Positions 10,527 through 31,206 of a stretch of 64,000 nt of DNA are shown piece after piece. The position numbers and the translations under genes were made by a program. Location: positions 160,001 to 224,000 of the IMG/VR virus record IMGVR_UViG_3300013212_000088; one strand, given 5' to 3'. This DNA comes from a virus (Duplodnaviria > Caudoviricetes). Positions within the stretch are counted from its first letter, which is position 1; every line of letters begins with the position of its first letter. The notes below the pieces were generated by a model. The model saw nothing but the letters and a program-made list of their open reading frames with translations. It had not been told where the DNA came from and searched no databases.

Positions 10527-12128
10527 CTAATCCTCGATTTGTGGCATTGACCAAGTACCCTTAAGGGCAGCTTGGATGTCAAGAGCTGCACTATTGGACG
10601 AACCATAAAGTGCAGGGGAAGTAGAAATACCCATCGTGGAGGCAGTTCTAACATTGAGTCTTTCTGCAGATGCTGCAGCAACACGCTCTGCGGATGCTTG
10701 GGCTGATCTGAGAAGTAATTGGGTGTTTTTGATCATAACGTCTGCTCTGATACCATCTTCGAGAAGTTGGCCAGCATAGTCGTCTGTTTCATTGGAATTG
10801 ATAATTCCAGCTAATGCTAATTTGGTTGCACAGGAATAAGCTGCCTTAATTCTTGCTGTATCAACTGAAACGCTTGCTTTGATACCATCAGGCATCATTT
10901 CTTTAACTTCAGTTGCAGTATTGTTTTGTTCAACTAAGCCATCAACTAATGTTTTGGTTGTTTCACCATCGGCTGCTGATTCAACTTTCTTACCAGAACA
11001 TGTTTCACACTCAGCCATTTCAGCTTCAGCTTCAGTCATGCTTTTTCTTGTTCCACATTTTTCACACTTGTAAGCATGTTTCATGCCTGCTTCATGTTCA
11101 TCTTTTTGTGCAACAGTTGTTTTACGTGCTTGAAGATCCATTTCAGATGGAATCTCAAAACCCTTTAATTTAGCTTCGCCTGTAGTAGGAACTACACGGT
11201 CCATTTGCTTCCAATCTACTTCGTACTCAAAGTCTGAACTCTCTCCAGAACCTTCGAATCCAACAGCATCCATGGAATCCTTGAATTGAAGATTTTTAGG
11301 GTTCTTAGTAGGAACCTTTGTCTTAGCGAAATCTGGGTTTTCACCCTTCATTGAGTTTTCGCCATCTAACTTCATGGTTGGATACTTCATTTCACCTGGA
11401 TACTGATTCATTTCGTCACTGTATTTAAAACTGCCTGACGCCTCAACATGCTCCTCTTCAGAAGCAAATTTGCGAAGGATCTCTTCTCTCTCCGCACGGC
11501 GAGCAGCTAATGATTGTCTATTCATTTTGTTGTCTCTCCTGCTATTTTTATGCATTTGGCTCTCATCGGAATTAACTTCCATATCATCATCATCTGAGTC
11601 CATGTCCATTTCTTCTGACATATCGTCGTCTTCCATGTCCATATCTTCATCAGAATCATTTCCGCCTAATACCCTGTCAAGCGCCTCTTGCACTGCCTTT
11701 TGTGCGGCGTCAACCATATCAGCGGGAACTTCAATTTCAAAAGTTGCGATATCGTTATCTTCTACTTCGCTTGCTTCTTCATCATCTTCATCAATATTTA
11801 AATCATTAGCACCATCTAATGGCATGTCTTCTTCGTCATCGTTAGTCATTTCTTTTGCGAAGTCTGCAGTCTCTTCATGGCTGTCATCAAGGTTTAAAAA
11901 TCCACCAGATGTCTCTTTTGTAAAGCCTGCCTCTCTTGCAAGATTTGGAAGATACTTTGCTCTGATAGCTTTAGCCACTGCAATTGCTTCACTTTCATTA
12001 AGTGATGCAGTGCGTTGCATGTCTGCTACACATGTTTGGAAATCTTCCTTATCGGTTGCTTTCAATTCGGCTAAACGAAGAGCGACAAATTTATCTTGAA
12101 TACCAGCTGTCTTCGTACTATTTTTCAT
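10527..12128 (-). CDS. Putative scaffold/core protein with acidic tract and Zn ribbon
   Basis: Long D/E tracts, CEKC...CETC, KxA motifs, position between protease and MCP. Confidence 0.55.
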   Translation of the reverse strand: MKNSTKTAGIQDKFVALRLAELKATDKEDFQTCVADMQRTASLNESEAIAVAKAIRAKYLPNLAREAGFTKETSGGFLNLDDSHEETADFAKEMTNDDEEDMPLDGANDLNIDEDDEEASEVEDNDIATFEIEVPADMVDAAQKAVQEALDRVLGGNDSDEDMDMEDDDMSEEMDMDSDDDDMEVNSDESQMHKNSRRDNKMNRQSLAARRAEREEILRKFASEEEHVEASGSFKYSDEMNQYPGEMKYPTMKLDGENSMKGENPDFAKTKVPTKNPKNLQFKDSMDAVGFEGSGESSDFEYEVDWKQMDRVVPTTGEAKLKGFEIPSEMDLQARKTTVAQKDEHEAGMKHAYKCEKCGTRKSMTEAEAEMAECETCSGKKVESAADGETTKTLVDGLVEQNNTATEVKEMMPDGIKASVSVDTARIKAAYSCATKLALAGIINSNETDDYAGQLLEDGIRADVMIKNTQLLLRSAQASAERVAAASAERLNVRTASTMGISTSPALYGSSNSAALDIQAALKGTWSMPQIED

Positions 12129-12198
12129 TTGTTTGTGCTGCTTCCCTCATTTATTCACGCTCAACTACTCGGCAAAGTAGTTGATATTAGTAAATACT

Positions 12199-12223
12199 TT
12201 CTTTAATAAAGTATTTTTTTCCT
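12199..12223 (-). promoter_or_regulatory. sigmaH-like promoter AGGA-N18-GAA for the scaffold/decoration/MCP operon
   Basis: Minus strand reads GAAGGAAAAAAATACTTTATTAAAGAAAG. Confidence 0.55.
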
Positions 12224-12246
12224 TCTTTAGTTTTAACTTTTACAAT

Positions 12247-12283
12247 AAAATAGGGAACTATTTATTGGATAATTCCCTATTTT
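12247..12283 (-). terminator. Intrinsic terminator after the 1408-aa protein
   Basis: AAAATAGGGAA...TTCCCTATTTT inverted repeat. Confidence 0.65.
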
Positions 12284-12299
12284 TACTATATTTTAAGTA

Positions 12300-29730: not shown

Positions 29731-30416
29731 TAATTTTCTTGCTTAAGCTTTTCTCTAAGCTTTTTAAGTTCGTCTCTAACTAGTCTTTTGTCATGTTCAC
29801 TTTCAAACTTGTCATGAAGTTCAGCTAATATCTCAAAAATATTAATTGCAAATACACCTTGGTCATCTCTTTTTGCTTTAATGTCTAAGATCTTGCTAAT
29901 AAGTTTTTCAACCATTGCAGCTCTTTTCAATTTCAAATCATTATTTTTACTACAATCAATTCCTCTAACATCATCAAGTTCAACCATTAAAGCAGTGAGG
30001 GCTAATTGATTTTCTCTAAAGATCCAAGGTGCAATTAATTCTTCTTGATGTTCATAACTCTTTAAACCAGAAGTCATAAGTTTCTTAAAATCACAATGTT
30101 GATCCATGTGAGTTGAAACTTGTGTCCAGTTTAACTTTACTCCATAATGCCTTTCAAAAAACTTAATTACAGCTTGGGATTTTTTTCCGCTTTCAAGAAA
30201 TACGTGTTCTGCTAAGTTTCTTAAATGGGAAGAGCAAATAGCACATCTTACCTCTATAAATTGAGGGTATGTGATGTCTGCCATGTGATCAACTGGTAGA
30301 GGAATTAAAGGCTTGTCAGTCTCTTTGATATCTTTGAAATATCTAGTAGAAGTTTCTGGTAAGTTTTCTTCTACTTGAACTAATGAATTGATGATGTTGT
30401 CTTTAGAGTTAGCCAT
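29730..30416 (-). CDS. Putative terminase small subunit
   Basis: Directly upstream of and coupled to terL; CAIC plus H/C residues and a C-terminal coiled coil. Assignment is by synteny. Confidence 0.45.
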   Translation of the reverse strand: MANSKDNIINSLVQVEENLPETSTRYFKDIKETDKPLIPLPVDHMADITYPQFIEVRCAICSSHLRNLAEHVFLESGKKSQAVIKFFERHYGVKLNWTQVSTHMDQHCDFKKLMTSGLKSYEHQEELIAPWIFRENQLALTALMVELDDVRGIDCSKNNDLKLKRAAMVEKLISKILDIKAKRDDQGVFAINIFEILAELHDKFESEHDKRLVRDELKKLREKLKQEN

Positions 30417-30443
30417 ATTACTATAATTTTACAGATAAAAGAA

Positions 30444-30467
30444 AAACCCGTCGAAAACGACGGGTTT
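30444..30467. terminator. Intrinsic terminator
   Basis: AAACCCGTCG-AAAA-CGACGGGTTT. Confidence 0.8.
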
Positions 30468-30486
30468 AAAATTAATATTTATATAA

Positions 30487-31206
30487 TTAAAAGTCTAATG
30501 CTCTTTTCAATCTTTGGTAAGGGGAAACTTTATCTGCAGCTGAAATCATAAATTCGTCAGCAATACCGAATGTTTCATAATTACCCTTGGTAAATTTATC
30601 TGATGAAGAAATACCAGCAGCTAAATTAACTGTGGCTTCACCTTTTCTGGTTGCAACTTTAAAAATCTTATTTGATTTATCAGCTGCAGTAACAACAGGC
30701 TTATCATTTTGTGCTACTAAAACTGAGTTTAGCAAAGCTTCTTCAATCCATGGTTTGAGTTCAGTATGTAAATTGCTTTTACCATTAGCTGATGTTTTAG
30801 CTAATTCTGCTAATCTAACCCATGAATCAAATGATTTCTCATCCGCTTTAACAATTGCATAAGGACCAGAACAAAGTCTCTTAGCAAACTCTTTAGCACT
30901 TAATTTTATTAGACTTCTTTCTATAATTGGAGCACAATCGGCATACTTTGTTGGTACTACTGAAACTTCGATTGTATTTTTATCAGCTACTGCATCTTTC
31001 TCATCAAAAACTTTAGAAGCAACTCTCTTAGCGAGATCTAAATCAAAGTTCTCTACAGCTAAGAGTTCAACCACATCGCTCTTGCTTAACCCTTTTTCTT
31101 TGAGATTCGAGGCCATTCTTTTAGCTACAAGATAAGCTCCATCTGCATGTTGCTTAAGCTCGTTGCGCCAATTGTAAATAAAGTCATCATTATTTTTTTC
31201 GGACAC
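30487..31206 (-). CDS. Hypothetical protein (probably head-associated)
   Basis: GTG start at 31206 with a GGGGAG SD; contains RVAS and KVAT motifs. Confidence 0.6.
   Translation of the reverse strand: MSEKNNDDFIYNWRNELKQHADGAYLVAKRMASNLKEKGLSKSDVVELLAVENFDLDLAKRVASKVFDEKDAVADKNTIEVSVVPTKYADCAPIIERSLIKLSAKEFAKRLCSGPYAIVKADEKSFDSWVRLAELAKTSANGKSNLHTELKPWIEEALLNSVLVAQNDKPVVTAADKSNKIFKVATRKGEATVNLAAGISSSDKFTKGNYETFGIADEFMISAADKVSPYQRLKRALDF

What the first reader, a model, noticed from the sequence alone, without database searches (positions are those of the whole stretch)
10527..31206. Pervasive [KR]-x-A-[SQA] motif across head-module proteins: candidate maturation cleavage code
Seen examples: 533-aa (KTAG, RTAS twice, KFAS); 1408-aa (KTAS, KLAQ, KIAS, RVAS, RTAA, RYAQ, RLAA, RTAS); portal (KTAA, KTAQ, RLAS, RVAG); 170-aa (KKAQ at the N-terminus); 522-aa (RIAS, RTAQ, KTAS); 309-aa (KKAS, KVAA); 351-aa (KTA five times); 158-aa (KVAS); 152-aa (KIAQ); 317-aa (KIAA); 239-aa (RVAS). 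The motifs often sit at domain boundaries or end short N-terminal leaders, and are not conspicuous in the replication proteins. Known: T4 gp21 and phiKZ gp175 cut many head proteins at short motifs ending in Glu. Inference: this protease cuts after Ala in K/R-x-A, a different specificity that also labels which orphans are packaged into the head.
Basis: partly seen in the sequence, partly recalled or inferred. Interest (0 to 1): 0.75.

Follow-up and report, generated by a model that had tools for sequence, protein, structure and literature searches.

The report
Lys/Arg-x-Ala head-protease cleavage code
A 261-kb relative of the giant Bacillus phage G marks its head-assembly proteins with a short, conserved Lys/Arg-x-Ala signal that most likely tells the phage's own herpesvirus-like head protease where to cut, so the proteins processed or packed inside the capsid could be predicted from sequence; no cleavage has been measured.

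Summary
In eight adjacent minus-strand genes (window 10527-24025) [KR]-x-A-[SQA] occurs 44 times against 10 expected. The stricter [KR]-[TVIL]-A-[SQA] occurs 29 times against 2.3. The rest of the 261-kb genome is at background, and reversed, shifted or substituted control patterns are not enriched.

Thirty sites are kept in diverged homologues while their flanks drift: K and R interchange, P2 varies, Ala is fixed. The enrichment holds in every relative tested and in 108 diverse homologous polyproteins (836 against 156 expected).

The 1408-aa protein starts with a protease domain of the T4 gp21 / herpesvirus assemblin fold. Conserved sites flank that domain here and in phage G gp19. A roughly 30-residue N-terminal tag on unrelated orphan proteins ends in [KR]-x-A, in this genome and in five relatives.

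Best reading (about 0.68): this is the prohead-protease cleavage code, cutting after Ala as assemblin does, with the polyprotein cut into pieces. It is inferred, not shown.

The major capsid protein (284 aa, like phage G gp27) has no site and no propeptide. TerL and its neighbours are not enriched.

This scan noted the same K-x-A code before in three other phage-G-like genomes. I found no published description.

The parts
12300..16526 (-). 1408-aa protease-fusion polyprotein, numbered from the TTG at 16526 (homologues start at Met8). It carries 15 [KR]xA[SQA] sites against 4.2 expected.
15756..16304 (-). Prohead protease domain (residues about 75-257) with the T4 gp21 / herpesvirus assemblin fold. 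Ser184 (VSMG, 15975-15977) is invariant and His133 (TNH, 16128-16130) nearly so. A Cys194/Cys197/Cys208 zinc-ribbon-like insert follows the Ser.
16386..16418 (-). Sites KTA|S (residue 37) and REA|A (residue 44), just N-terminal to the protease domain. Kept in 30/35 and 35/35 diverged homologues. Site 37 matches phage G gp19 KTA|A (residue 43).
15585..15596 (-). Site KLA|Q (residue 311), C-terminal to the protease domain and candidate release site. Kept 35/35 in close relatives and 14/24 in diverse polyproteins. It sits at a helix end before a low-confidence stretch.
14805..14840 (-). Sites KIA|S (residue 563) and KLA|A (residue 571). Kept 34/35 and 31/35. They lie in a helix just after a low-confidence segment.
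14634..14645 (-). Site RVA|A (residue 628). Kept 35/35, but it lies inside a confidently predicted helix, so cleavage is less certain.
13599..13610 (-). Site RVA|S (residue 973). Kept 34/35 and 16/24. It lies in a short low-pLDDT loop between helices.
13422..13433 (-). Site RTA|A (residue 1032). Kept 31/35 and 14/24, with flank identity 0.18. It lies in a low-pLDDT linker.
13038..13049 (-). Site RYA|Q (residue 1160). Kept 29/35 and 22/24; Ala1162 and Gln1163 are invariant in 24 polyproteins of 19-54% identity. It sits at a helix end, directly before a Gly-rich low-confidence stretch and two zinc ribbons.
16653..19031 (-). Portal protein (792 aa), Portal_Mu-like, 32% identical to phage G gp14. 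Residues about 663-782 (16686-17045) form a C-terminal DUF559 endonuclease-like domain. 6 sites against 1.0 expected.
18873..18992 (-). Portal N-terminal sites KTA|A (residue 14, kept 19/35) and KTA|Q (residue 50, kept 26/35). Site 50 aligns column for column with phage G gp14 KMA|S (residue 55).
17259..17342 (-). Portal sites RLA|S (residue 564, kept 34/35, flank identity 0.35) and RVA|G (residue 588, kept 31/35). They lie after the Gly-rich stretch, between the portal body and the DUF559-like domain.
10527..12128 (-). 533-aa acidic orphan between the polyprotein and the decoration/MCP genes; candidate scaffold or internal protein. Conserved sites at residues 39 (23/25), 65, 220 (21/25), 474, 482 and 494 (23/25).
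19064..24025 (-). Five orphan genes upstream of the portal (170, 522, 309, 270 and 351 aa). Conserved sites: 522 aa at 357; 309 aa at 148 (34/39, flank identity 0.23) and 234; 270 aa at 127; 351 aa at 199 and 217. The 170-aa KKAQ is not conserved.
25360..25464 (-). N-terminal tag of the 152-aa orphan (residues 3-35), ending in KIA|Q (residue 34). It is one of 10 copies of the tag in this genome.
27545..27556 (-). Site KIA|A at residue 8 of the 317-aa orphan. Kept in 33/34 diverged homologues (RTAQ, KTAQ, RTAA and others).
24709..24720 (-). Site KTA|G at residue 95 of the 158-aa orphan. Kept 32/37, but in a well-conserved region, so it may be structural.
8976..9830 (-). Major capsid protein (284 aa), homologous to phage G gp27. 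It has no motif and no N-terminal propeptide, so it is a predicted non-substrate. It lies outside the finding's range.

Best explanation
The motif is the recognition and cleavage code of the phage's own prohead (capsid-maturation) serine protease, which is the N-terminal domain of the 1408-aa protein.

Proposed mechanism:
1. The polyprotein (protease, long helical scaffold-like region, two zinc ribbons), the portal, the 533-aa acidic protein and the orphans upstream of the portal co-assemble into the procapsid around a small, propeptide-free phage-G-type MCP.
2. Other orphans are recruited by a roughly 30-residue N-terminal amphipathic tag.
3. The protease then cuts after the Ala of [KR]-x-A (P3-P2-P1). 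P2 is preferably T/V/I/L, P1' is usually S/Q/A/G, and P4 has a weak hydrophobic preference.
4. These cuts free the protease itself (sites 37/44 and 311), split the polyprotein at about 563/571, 973, 1032 and 1160, trim the portal N-terminus (site 50), detach the portal's C-terminal DUF559-like domain (sites 564/588), and remove the tags.

Shown here: enrichment, conservation, protease fold and invariant Ser/His, sites flanking the protease domain, and coupling of the tag end to the motif.
Inferred: that cleavage occurs, which bond is cut, which sites are used, and that tagged proteins are packaged.
For: - Enrichment: 44 against 10 (z 11) and 29 against 2.3 (z 17.8) in eight adjacent genes. The rest of the genome is at background and the control patterns are flat.
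- The signal is at protein level: codon use at the sites equals background.
- Conservation within proteins: P1 Ala is kept in 72% of diverged homologues against 50% for other Ala (p 4e-5); P3 K/R 78% against 60% (p 5e-4).
- Thirty sites are kept in at least 60% of homologues below 75% identity, with K/R interchange and variable P2, many in flanks of 0.2-0.45 identity.
- The enrichment is present in all 38 related loci, down to 48% portal identity.
- In 108 polyproteins, each a representative of a 50%-identity cluster, counts are 836 against 156 expected, while the reversed motif is 499 against 567. An unbiased scan ranks K.A and K.AS among the top patterns.
- Site 1160 is kept in 22/24 polyproteins of 19-54% identity, with Ala and Gln invariant.
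- Conserved sites flank the domain here and in phage G gp19 (residues 43, 248, 274). Portal site 50 aligns exactly with phage G gp14 site 55.
- Sites 311, 973, 1032 and 1160 fall at helix ends or in low-pLDDT linkers.
- Tag: 10 copies in this genome, 8 followed at once or within 12 residues by [KR]xA (p 6e-7). In five relatives 19 of 30 are (p 5e-12), mostly at one fixed column. C-terminal copies of the tag lack the site.
- Established knowledge: proteases of this fold read a P3-x-P1 rule. T4 gp21 uses L/I-x-E, phiKZ gp175 and SPN3US gp245 use S/A/G-x-E (PMC10052503), and herpesvirus assemblin uses V/L/I-x-A|S (from my own knowledge).
Against: - There is no direct evidence of cleavage: no mature N-termini and no virion proteomics for this phage.
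- The cut position is argued by analogy only.
- Some conserved sites lie in well-conserved or confidently helical regions (portal 99 and 310, polyprotein 628, 158-aa 95). They may be structural rather than cut, and portal 99 and 310 are not shared with phage G.
- About a third of the window's sites are not conserved.
- The third catalytic residue was not identified.
- A complex prediction of protease with a tagged substrate gave no verdict.
- In the cluster C mycobacteriophage Cane17, which has the same protease-fusion architecture, enrichment is only weak.
Confidence: 0.68

Rival explanations
1. The motif is a short linear motif with a non-proteolytic role, for example a docking signal for procapsid incorporation, a contact with MCP, portal or DNA, or a site of lysine modification. 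The proteins stay intact.
For: Enrichment and conservation show selection on the motif, not cleavage. Some sites lie inside confident helices or conserved cores. The tag plus motif could act together as one targeting signal.
Against: - Conserved sites bracket the protease domain in both the fused form (this phage) and the free form (phage G gp19). That is the hallmark of prohead-protease self-release.
- The P3-x-P1 pattern with a small P1 matches the substrate rules of this fold.
- Sites sit at tag ends and at linker boundaries.
- C-terminal copies of the tag lack the Ala site. A pure docking motif would be expected to keep it.
Confidence: 0.12
2. The motif is a cleavage signal but is read differently: either another protease cuts it (the phage's S1 trypsin-like, S8 or S26 enzymes, or a host enzyme), or the bond cut is after the K/R rather than after Ala.
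For: Basic residues are the classical P1 of trypsin-like enzymes. No data here fix the scissile bond.
Against: - The motif is concentrated in the genes around the prohead protease and portal and co-varies with that protease family across 108 diverse polyproteins. It also appears in phage G.
- The invariant positions are Ala and the following residue (site 1160: A and Q invariant, while K/R interchange). That fits P1/P1' better than P2'/P3'.
- Signal peptidase I needs a small residue at -3 and a hydrophobic signal segment. Here -3 is K/R and most sites are internal.
Confidence: 0.12
3. The enrichment is an artefact of composition, helical periodicity or shared ancestry of repeats, picked out after the fact by the first reader.
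For: The motif was defined after reading the sequences. The proteins are rich in K, A, S and Q and largely helical.
Against: - Per-protein shuffles control for composition (z 11-18).
- Register-shifted and reversed patterns are flat.
- An unbiased pattern scan on independent proteins recovers K.A and K.AS.
- The enrichment replicates in relatives and in 108 proteins, each a representative of a 50%-identity cluster.
- Sites are conserved while their flanks diverge.
Confidence: 0.02

Closest known systems
Herpesvirus assemblin and the protease-scaffold precursor (HSV pUL26, HCMV pUL80a; MEROPS S21), with release and maturation sites (V/L/I)-x-A|S
   Different: P3 is basic (K/R) rather than aliphatic. 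The predicted cuts are many (about 9 conserved in the polyprotein, plus the portal and orphans) rather than two. There is a zinc-ribbon insert after the catalytic Ser. No sequence similarity is detectable. The assemblin site consensus is quoted from my own knowledge, not from a tool.
T4 gp21 prohead protease (MEROPS S77; PDB 5JBL), its L/I-x-E rule and the capsid-targeting sequence of internal proteins
   Different: P1 is Ala, not Glu, and P3 is basic, not aliphatic. The MCP has no propeptide and no site, whereas T4 gp23 is cut. The protease is fused to a 1100-residue extension. The tag is about 30 residues against about 10 in T4.
phiKZ gp175, 201phi2-1 and SPN3US gp245 jumbo-phage prohead proteases (S/A/G-x-E; 9-19 substrates; PMC10052503, PMC5694885)
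   Same: These are jumbo phages in which one protease processes many head and ejection proteins, including itself, at a short motif. Multiple motif copies lie within propeptides.
   Different: The P1 residue differs (Glu there, Ala here). The phage lineage is different (phage-G-like head genes). Here the evidence is purely computational.
Bacillus phage G gp19 protease, gp14 portal and gp27 MCP (PDB 6WKK)
   Same: These are direct homologues. MCP matches at E 1.6e-91. The portal is 32% identical and the protease domain 37%. Phage G carries K-x-A-[SAG] at matching positions (gp19 43/248/274; gp14 55). There are 26 sites against 9.7 expected in the 22 annotated proteins I picked from its head region.
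   Different: In phage G the protease is a free 300-aa protein rather than a 1408-aa fusion. The N-terminal tag was not detected in phage G. No cleavage specificity is reported in the phage G paper I could read (PMC12484599).

Membership tests
gp21/assemblin-fold prohead serine proteases (MEROPS clan SH: S21, S77, S78, S80) | Assemblin-type fold | tested here: met
gp21/assemblin-fold prohead serine proteases (MEROPS clan SH: S21, S77, S78, S80) | Conserved catalytic Ser and His, plus a third residue | tested here: inconclusive
   Ser184 is invariant and His133 at least 90% conserved in 38 sequences of 30-77% identity. They are 51 residues apart. Their equivalence to the gp21 catalytic residues and the identity of the third residue were not checked in 3D.
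gp21/assemblin-fold prohead serine proteases (MEROPS clan SH: S21, S77, S78, S80) | Sequence membership of a curated family (Pfam S77/S78/S21) | tested here: not met
   There is no Pfam hit at E<=0.01 and no PDB sequence or profile hit to gp21 or assemblin. Only PHROG 18299 'head maturation protease' (E 1.2e-16) matches, plus annotated proteases of phage E3, Stormageddon and Pupper. It is therefore a separate sequence family within the fold.
gp21/assemblin-fold prohead serine proteases (MEROPS clan SH: S21, S77, S78, S80) | Encoded in the head module next to the portal and MCP | tested here: met
   The gene order is portal, polyprotein, 533 aa, 211 aa, MCP. The same order is seen in phage G and Cane17.
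gp21/assemblin-fold prohead serine proteases (MEROPS clan SH: S21, S77, S78, S80) | Cleaves itself and other head proteins at a short motif | not testable with these tools
   Only indirect evidence exists: conserved sites flank the domain.
Protease-scaffold fusion precursors (herpesvirus pUL26 type; also lambda C/Nu3, P2 gpO) | N-terminal protease and C-terminal assembly (scaffold) region in one reading frame | tested here: inconclusive
   The fusion itself is met: 1408 aa, and most of the 150 best-listed of 2590 family representatives are 1100-2600 aa with the protease at the N-terminus. The extension is largely helical, but a scaffold function is not shown and no fold match was found.
T4-type capsid-targeting sequence system | One N-terminal leader shared by otherwise unrelated proteins and ending in the protease motif | tested here: met
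   There are 10 copies in this genome and 6-18 in each of five relatives. 8/10 and 19/30 are followed by [KR]xA, against 11% expected. The protein bodies have no Pfam family.
T4-type capsid-targeting sequence system | The leader directs the protein into the procapsid and is removed | not testable with these tools
   This needs virion proteomics or fusion-reporter packaging.
Signal peptidase I (A-x-A) substrates | Small uncharged residue at -3, plus a preceding hydrophobic signal segment | tested here: not met
   Position -3 is K or R by definition. Most sites are internal and preceded by polar sequence.

The most novel reading that the evidence does not exclude
A large, mostly uncultured lineage of phage-G-like big phages (2590 protease representatives in the 50%-identity library) runs a head-maturation system with three linked parts:
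1. an assemblin-fold protease with Ala at P1 and Lys/Arg at P3, fused to a scaffold/cargo polyprotein that it cuts into about eight pieces;
2. a portable 30-residue N-terminal targeting tag ending in the same site, which loads unrelated orphan proteins into the capsid;
3. proteolytic release of a DUF559 nuclease-like domain from the portal.

If so, the processed and packaged (possibly ejected) proteome of these phages can be read from sequence. Assemblin-like Ala|Ser specificity would then not be unique to herpesviruses within this ancient protease fold.
Probability: 0.5. Interest if true: 0.7.

Novelty: new variant of a known kind. Interest (0 to 1): 0.6.

Why it matters
Prohead-protease codes are known experimentally for only a few phages (T4, phiKZ, 201phi2-1, SPN3US), and all of those end in Glu.

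A Lys/Arg-x-Ala code in the phage-G lineage would add a new specificity class to the gp21/assemblin fold. Its P1/P1' would be the same as in herpesvirus assemblin, which bears on how the shared ancestor of tailed-phage and herpesvirus proteases recognised substrates.

Practically, the code gives a sequence-only way to predict three things across hundreds of uncultured large phages: mature protein boundaries, scaffold and cargo fragments, and, with the tag, candidate packaged proteins.

It is directly testable, because phage G is cultured and its virions have already been analysed by mass spectrometry.

Tried and rejected
- Complex prediction of the protease domain (residues 47-313) with the first 60 residues of the tagged 152-aa protein gave no verdict (score 0.01). 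It is neither support nor evidence against.
- Foldseek of the polyprotein C-terminal model (residues 300-1408, pLDDT 61.6) against PDB found only generic helical matches.
- Pfam found nothing for the 533-, 170-, 522-, 309-, 270-, 351-, 158-, 152-, 317-, 254- and 211-aa proteins or for six tagged proteins. PHROGs found nothing for most of them.
- PDB sequence and profile searches did not reach gp21 or assemblin.
- The 533-aa protein shows no significant similarity to phage G gp21.
- The tag profile found nothing in phage G or mycobacteriophage Cane17. This is uninformative.
- Megablast of the region against cultured phages found no match.
- Five literature searches found no description of a K/R-x-A prohead-protease specificity and no cleavage data for phage G. 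The 2020 phage G structure paper did not turn up in the library search, so I did not read it.
- I first took the 374-aa gene for the MCP. It is a UDP-galactopyranose mutase.
- N-terminal enrichment of the motif outside the head block is only about 1.9-fold (16 against 8.5 in the first 25 residues). That is too weak to call substrates individually.
- An upstream hydrophobic preference reported in earlier notes is weak here: P4 44% against 28% background, P5 not significant.
- A DNA-level motif was rejected on codon usage.

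
Full report
WHAT THE WINDOW IS.
The window is bases 160001-224000 of a 261,424-bp, 33.6% GC virus record. On the minus strand it carries a head module. In order of transcription the genes are:
- TerL (27604-29730; PHROG terminase);
- a 317-aa orphan;
- a UDP-galactopyranose mutase (25490-26614; 40-50% identical to annotated Glf genes). 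It is not the capsid protein;
- 152- and 158-aa orphans;
- a DUF192 protein;
- 351-, 270-, 309-, 522- and 170-aa orphans;
- the portal (16653-19031; Portal_Mu plus a C-terminal DUF559-like domain);
- a 1408-aa protein (12300-16526);
- a 533-aa acidic orphan (10527-12128);
- a 211-aa orphan;
- the real major capsid protein (8976-9830, 284 aa). It matches phage G gp27 (PDB 6wkk) at E 1.6e-91 over its whole length, so it has no propeptide.
The nearest cultured relative of the portal, protease and MCP is Bacillus phage G.

Yes. In per-protein shuffles, the eight genes at 10527-24025 hold 44 [KR].A[SQA] against 10.0 +/- 3.1 expected (z 11; none of 1000 shuffles reaches it). They hold 29 [KR][TVIL]A[SQA] against 2.3 (z 17.8). 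The other 240 ORFs of the genome give 88 against 81 and 38 against 22.

Patterns that keep the composition but change order, register or one residue class are flat in the head block: reversed 12 against 10; K/R-A-x-S 8 against 10; K/R-x-x-A-S 14 against 10; Ser for Ala 8 against 8; Asp/Glu for Lys/Arg 8 against 14. Codons at the sites follow background synonymous usage, so this is not a nucleotide motif.

The enrichment stops at 24025. The 158-, 152- and 317-aa proteins each add one site. TerL and the 228- and 254-aa proteins are at chance.

IS IT UNDER SELECTION?
A portal-based search gave 69 related loci in IMG/VR, with 48-99% portal identity.
- In alignments restricted to homologues below 75% identity, 30 of the window's sites are kept in at least 60% of sequences. 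Lys and Arg interchange, P2 varies (T, L, V, I, F, Y, S, E, Q) and Ala is fixed.
- Many sites sit in poorly conserved surroundings: 309-aa site 148 (34/39, flank identity 0.23); portal 564 (34/35, 0.35); polyprotein 1032 (31/35, 0.43) and 1160 (29/35, 0.41); 152-aa site 34 (21/28, 0.25).
- Within the same proteins, motif Ala is kept as Ala in 72% of diverged homologues against 50% for other Ala (p 4e-5). Motif K/R is kept in 78% against 60% (p 5e-4).
- About a third of the window's sites are not conserved, for example the 170-aa KKAQ (0/27) and polyprotein sites 808, 851, 1330 and 1350.
- The enrichment is present in each of 38 related loci (z 5-18 for the strict motif), including those at 48-52% portal identity.

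HOW FAR DOES IT REACH?
An exhaustive HMMER search with the N-terminal 330 residues found 2590 cluster representatives at E<=0.001. Most of the 150 best hits are 1100-2600-aa proteins with the matching domain at the N-terminus.
- In the 108 long ones among those 150, each a representative of a 50%-identity cluster, [KR][TVILFY]A[SQAG] occurs 836 times against 156 expected (5.4-fold). The ratio is equally high in the most distant third. The reversed motif gives 499 against 567.
- An unbiased scan of all gapped pairs and a.bc patterns on these proteins ranks K.A second among pairs and K.AS fourth among a.bc patterns (z 41). The other top patterns are single conserved domain motifs.
- In 24 polyproteins of 19-54% identity, sites near reference positions 311, 971, 1032, 1160 and 1342 are occupied in 13-22 sequences. 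At 1160 the Ala and the following Gln are invariant.
- In phage G's head region, the 22 annotated proteins I picked hold 26 K/R-x-A-[SQAG] against 9.7 expected. Sites in gp19 at 43, 248 and 274 bracket the protease domain, and sites in portal gp14 lie at 18, 55 and 625.
- Window portal site 50 (KTA|Q) and gp14 site 55 (KMA|S) occupy the same alignment column.
- Mycobacteriophage Cane17 has the same architecture (gp86, 1240 aa) but only weak enrichment.

THE ENZYME.
- Residues about 59-249 of the 1408-aa protein match PHROG 18299 'head maturation protease' and annotated proteases of Rhodococcus phage E3 and Gordonia phages. No Pfam family matches.
- An AF2 model built on 38 homologues has pLDDT 86.8.
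- Ser184 (VSMG) is invariant and His133 (TNH) nearly so. A Cys-x2-Cys...Cys insert follows the serine.
- I could not identify the third catalytic residue, and I did not verify the Ser/His geometry in 3D.

ANATOMY OF THE PREDICTED SUBSTRATES.
Numbering runs from the TTG at 16526; homologues begin at Met8.
- Polyprotein: conserved sites lie at 37 and 44 (before the protease domain), 311 (after it), 563/571, 628, 973, 1032 and 1160.
- In a lower-confidence model of residues 300-1408 (pLDDT 61.6), sites 311 and 1160 sit at helix ends directly before long low-confidence stretches. Sites 973 and 1032 sit in short low-confidence linkers. Sites 563/571 follow a low-confidence segment. Site 628 lies inside a confident helix.
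- The extension is mostly helical with internal repeats. After site 1160 come a Gly-rich linker and two CxxC...CxxC zinc ribbons.
- Portal: sites 14 and 50 precede the conserved body, which starts near residue 60 in the phage G alignment. Sites 564 and 588 lie after a Gly-rich stretch, between the body and the DUF559-like domain.
- MCP and the 211-aa protein have no site.

THE TAG.
- It finds 10 copies in this genome, one of them in the window's 152-aa protein.
- Eight are followed at once or within 12 residues by [KR]-x-A, against 11% expected for a random 20-residue window (p 6e-7).
- In five long related records the profile finds 6-18 copies each. Of the 30 I could read, 19 end in [KR]-x-A, mostly at one fixed column, for example ...TKVMS-RIA|KDDEY and ...LI-KTA|QNY (p 5e-12). 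Three variants have Ser in place of Ala.
- Copies at a protein's C-terminus stop without the site.
- After the site the sequences are unrelated and often acidic, and the proteins have no Pfam family.
- P1' is far more variable at tag ends (D, M, K, F, Y, Q, S, A) than at internal sites. The core of the code is therefore [KR]-x-A.

MECHANISM AND STATUS.
The best explanation is a prohead-protease cleavage code, [KR]-x-A|, read by the N-terminal domain of the polyprotein.
- Shown: local, specific, replicated enrichment; purifying selection on the motif; the protease fold and conserved Ser/His; sites bracketing the protease domain in fused and free forms; coupling of the motif to the end of a shared leader.
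- Inferred from established knowledge of this fold: Ala is P1. T4 uses L/I-x-E and phiKZ/SPN3US use S/A/G-x-E (PMC10052503). Herpesvirus assemblin uses V/L/I-x-A|S (from my own knowledge).
- Not shown: that any bond is cut, which sites are used, and that tagged proteins enter the capsid.

RIVALS.
- A non-proteolytic docking or modification motif (0.12) does not explain the bracketing of the protease domain or the loss of the Ala site in C-terminal tags.
- Another protease, or a cut after K/R (0.12), cannot be excluded. An earlier, untested note reports S8, S26 and S1 genes elsewhere in the genome. However, the motif tracks the prohead-protease family across genomes, and its invariant positions are Ala and the next residue. 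Signal peptidase I is excluded by K/R at -3.
- A compositional or post-hoc artefact (0.02) is excluded by the controls and the replications.

COMPARISON AND NOVELTY.
The system works like T4 (protease plus capsid-targeting leaders), phiKZ/SPN3US (many substrates) and herpesvirus pUL26 (protease fused to an assembly protein, Ala|Ser sites). It belongs to the gp21/assemblin fold but to no curated sequence family.
It differs in four ways: basic P3 with Ala P1, an uncut MCP, a 1100-residue multi-site extension, and a 30-residue leader.
Five literature searches found no report of this specificity and no cleavage data for phage G. The 2020 phage G structure paper did not turn up in the library search, so I did not read it.
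Earlier notes of this scan describe the same K-x-A code in three other phage-G-like genomes. They agree with this report but are not independent experimental evidence. I rate the finding a new variant of a known kind.

DEAD ENDS.
The complex prediction gave no verdict. The polyprotein extension has no fold match. The tag was not detected in phage G or Cane17. N-terminal enrichment of the motif outside the head block is only about 1.9-fold. The upstream hydrophobic preference is weak here.

Noticed in passing
L068:12394-14529 (also L054, L035; representatives P0007, P0013, P0014, P0022): Some relatives carry an insertion of about 380 aa in the protease domain, near the catalytic VSMG. Pfam identifies it as an intein with a LAGLIDADG homing endonuclease (LAGLIDADG_3 E 3.6e-13; Intein_splicing E 2e-5). 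The window's copy lacks it.
   Followed up: partly
window 15900-15950 (-), residues 194-211 of the 1408-aa protein: A zinc-ribbon-like insert (CSxCGNKA...YCxH/C) lies immediately after the catalytic serine. Cys194, Cys197 and Cys208 are invariant in 38 homologues. I do not know of such an insert in T4 gp21 or in assemblins.
   Followed up: partly
window 16686-17045 (-), portal residues about 663-782: The portal carries a C-terminal DUF559 / MTES_1575 endonuclease-like domain (Pfam E 3e-8 to 8e-8). It is separated from the portal body by a Gly-rich linker and two conserved motif sites, so it could be released inside the capsid.
   Followed up: partly
window 25490-26614 (-) and 24148-24450 (-): A UDP-galactopyranose mutase (Glf, 40-50% identical to bacterial and phage Glf) and a DUF192 protein sit inside the head module, between TerL and the portal-proximal orphans.
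   Followed up: partly
window 12303-13037 (-), polyprotein residues 1163-1408: The last predicted fragment of the polyprotein holds two CxxC...CxxC zinc ribbons (Cys1229/1232/1246/1249 and Cys1362/1365/1379/1382). The cysteines are invariant or nearly so in 24 polyproteins, and the ribbons are separated by low-confidence Gly/Pro-rich linkers.
   Followed up: partly
window 34086-35081 (-): A 331-aa protein matches PHROG 1211, a PurZ-type adenylosuccinate-synthetase-like family (E 1e-67). This hints at modified-purine (2-aminoadenine) DNA metabolism.
   Followed up: no
window 31340-31894 (-): A 184-aa sigma-factor-like protein (PHROG 351/1740) lies directly upstream of the packaging and head genes.
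   Followed up: no
window 19064-19576 (-); genome 251236, 252149, 252835 (+), 245715 (-): Five proteins begin (the one at 252835 after a five-residue MGPII lead) with MWY, four of them followed by [KR]-x-A or [KR]-A (MWYRIKKAQ, MWYKLAAQ, MWYRKAM, MWYRLAI). This may be a second, very short leader type. The 170-aa copy's motif is not conserved in relatives.
   Followed up: partly
L071 (Mycobacterium phage Cane17, NC_054716.1 43473-47195): Cluster C mycobacteriophages encode the same N-terminal-protease fusion (gp86, 1240 aa, annotated hypothetical), next to a 1267-aa protein and a 1231-aa portal. K/R-x-A enrichment there is weak (gp85: 6 against 1.0).
   Followed up: partly
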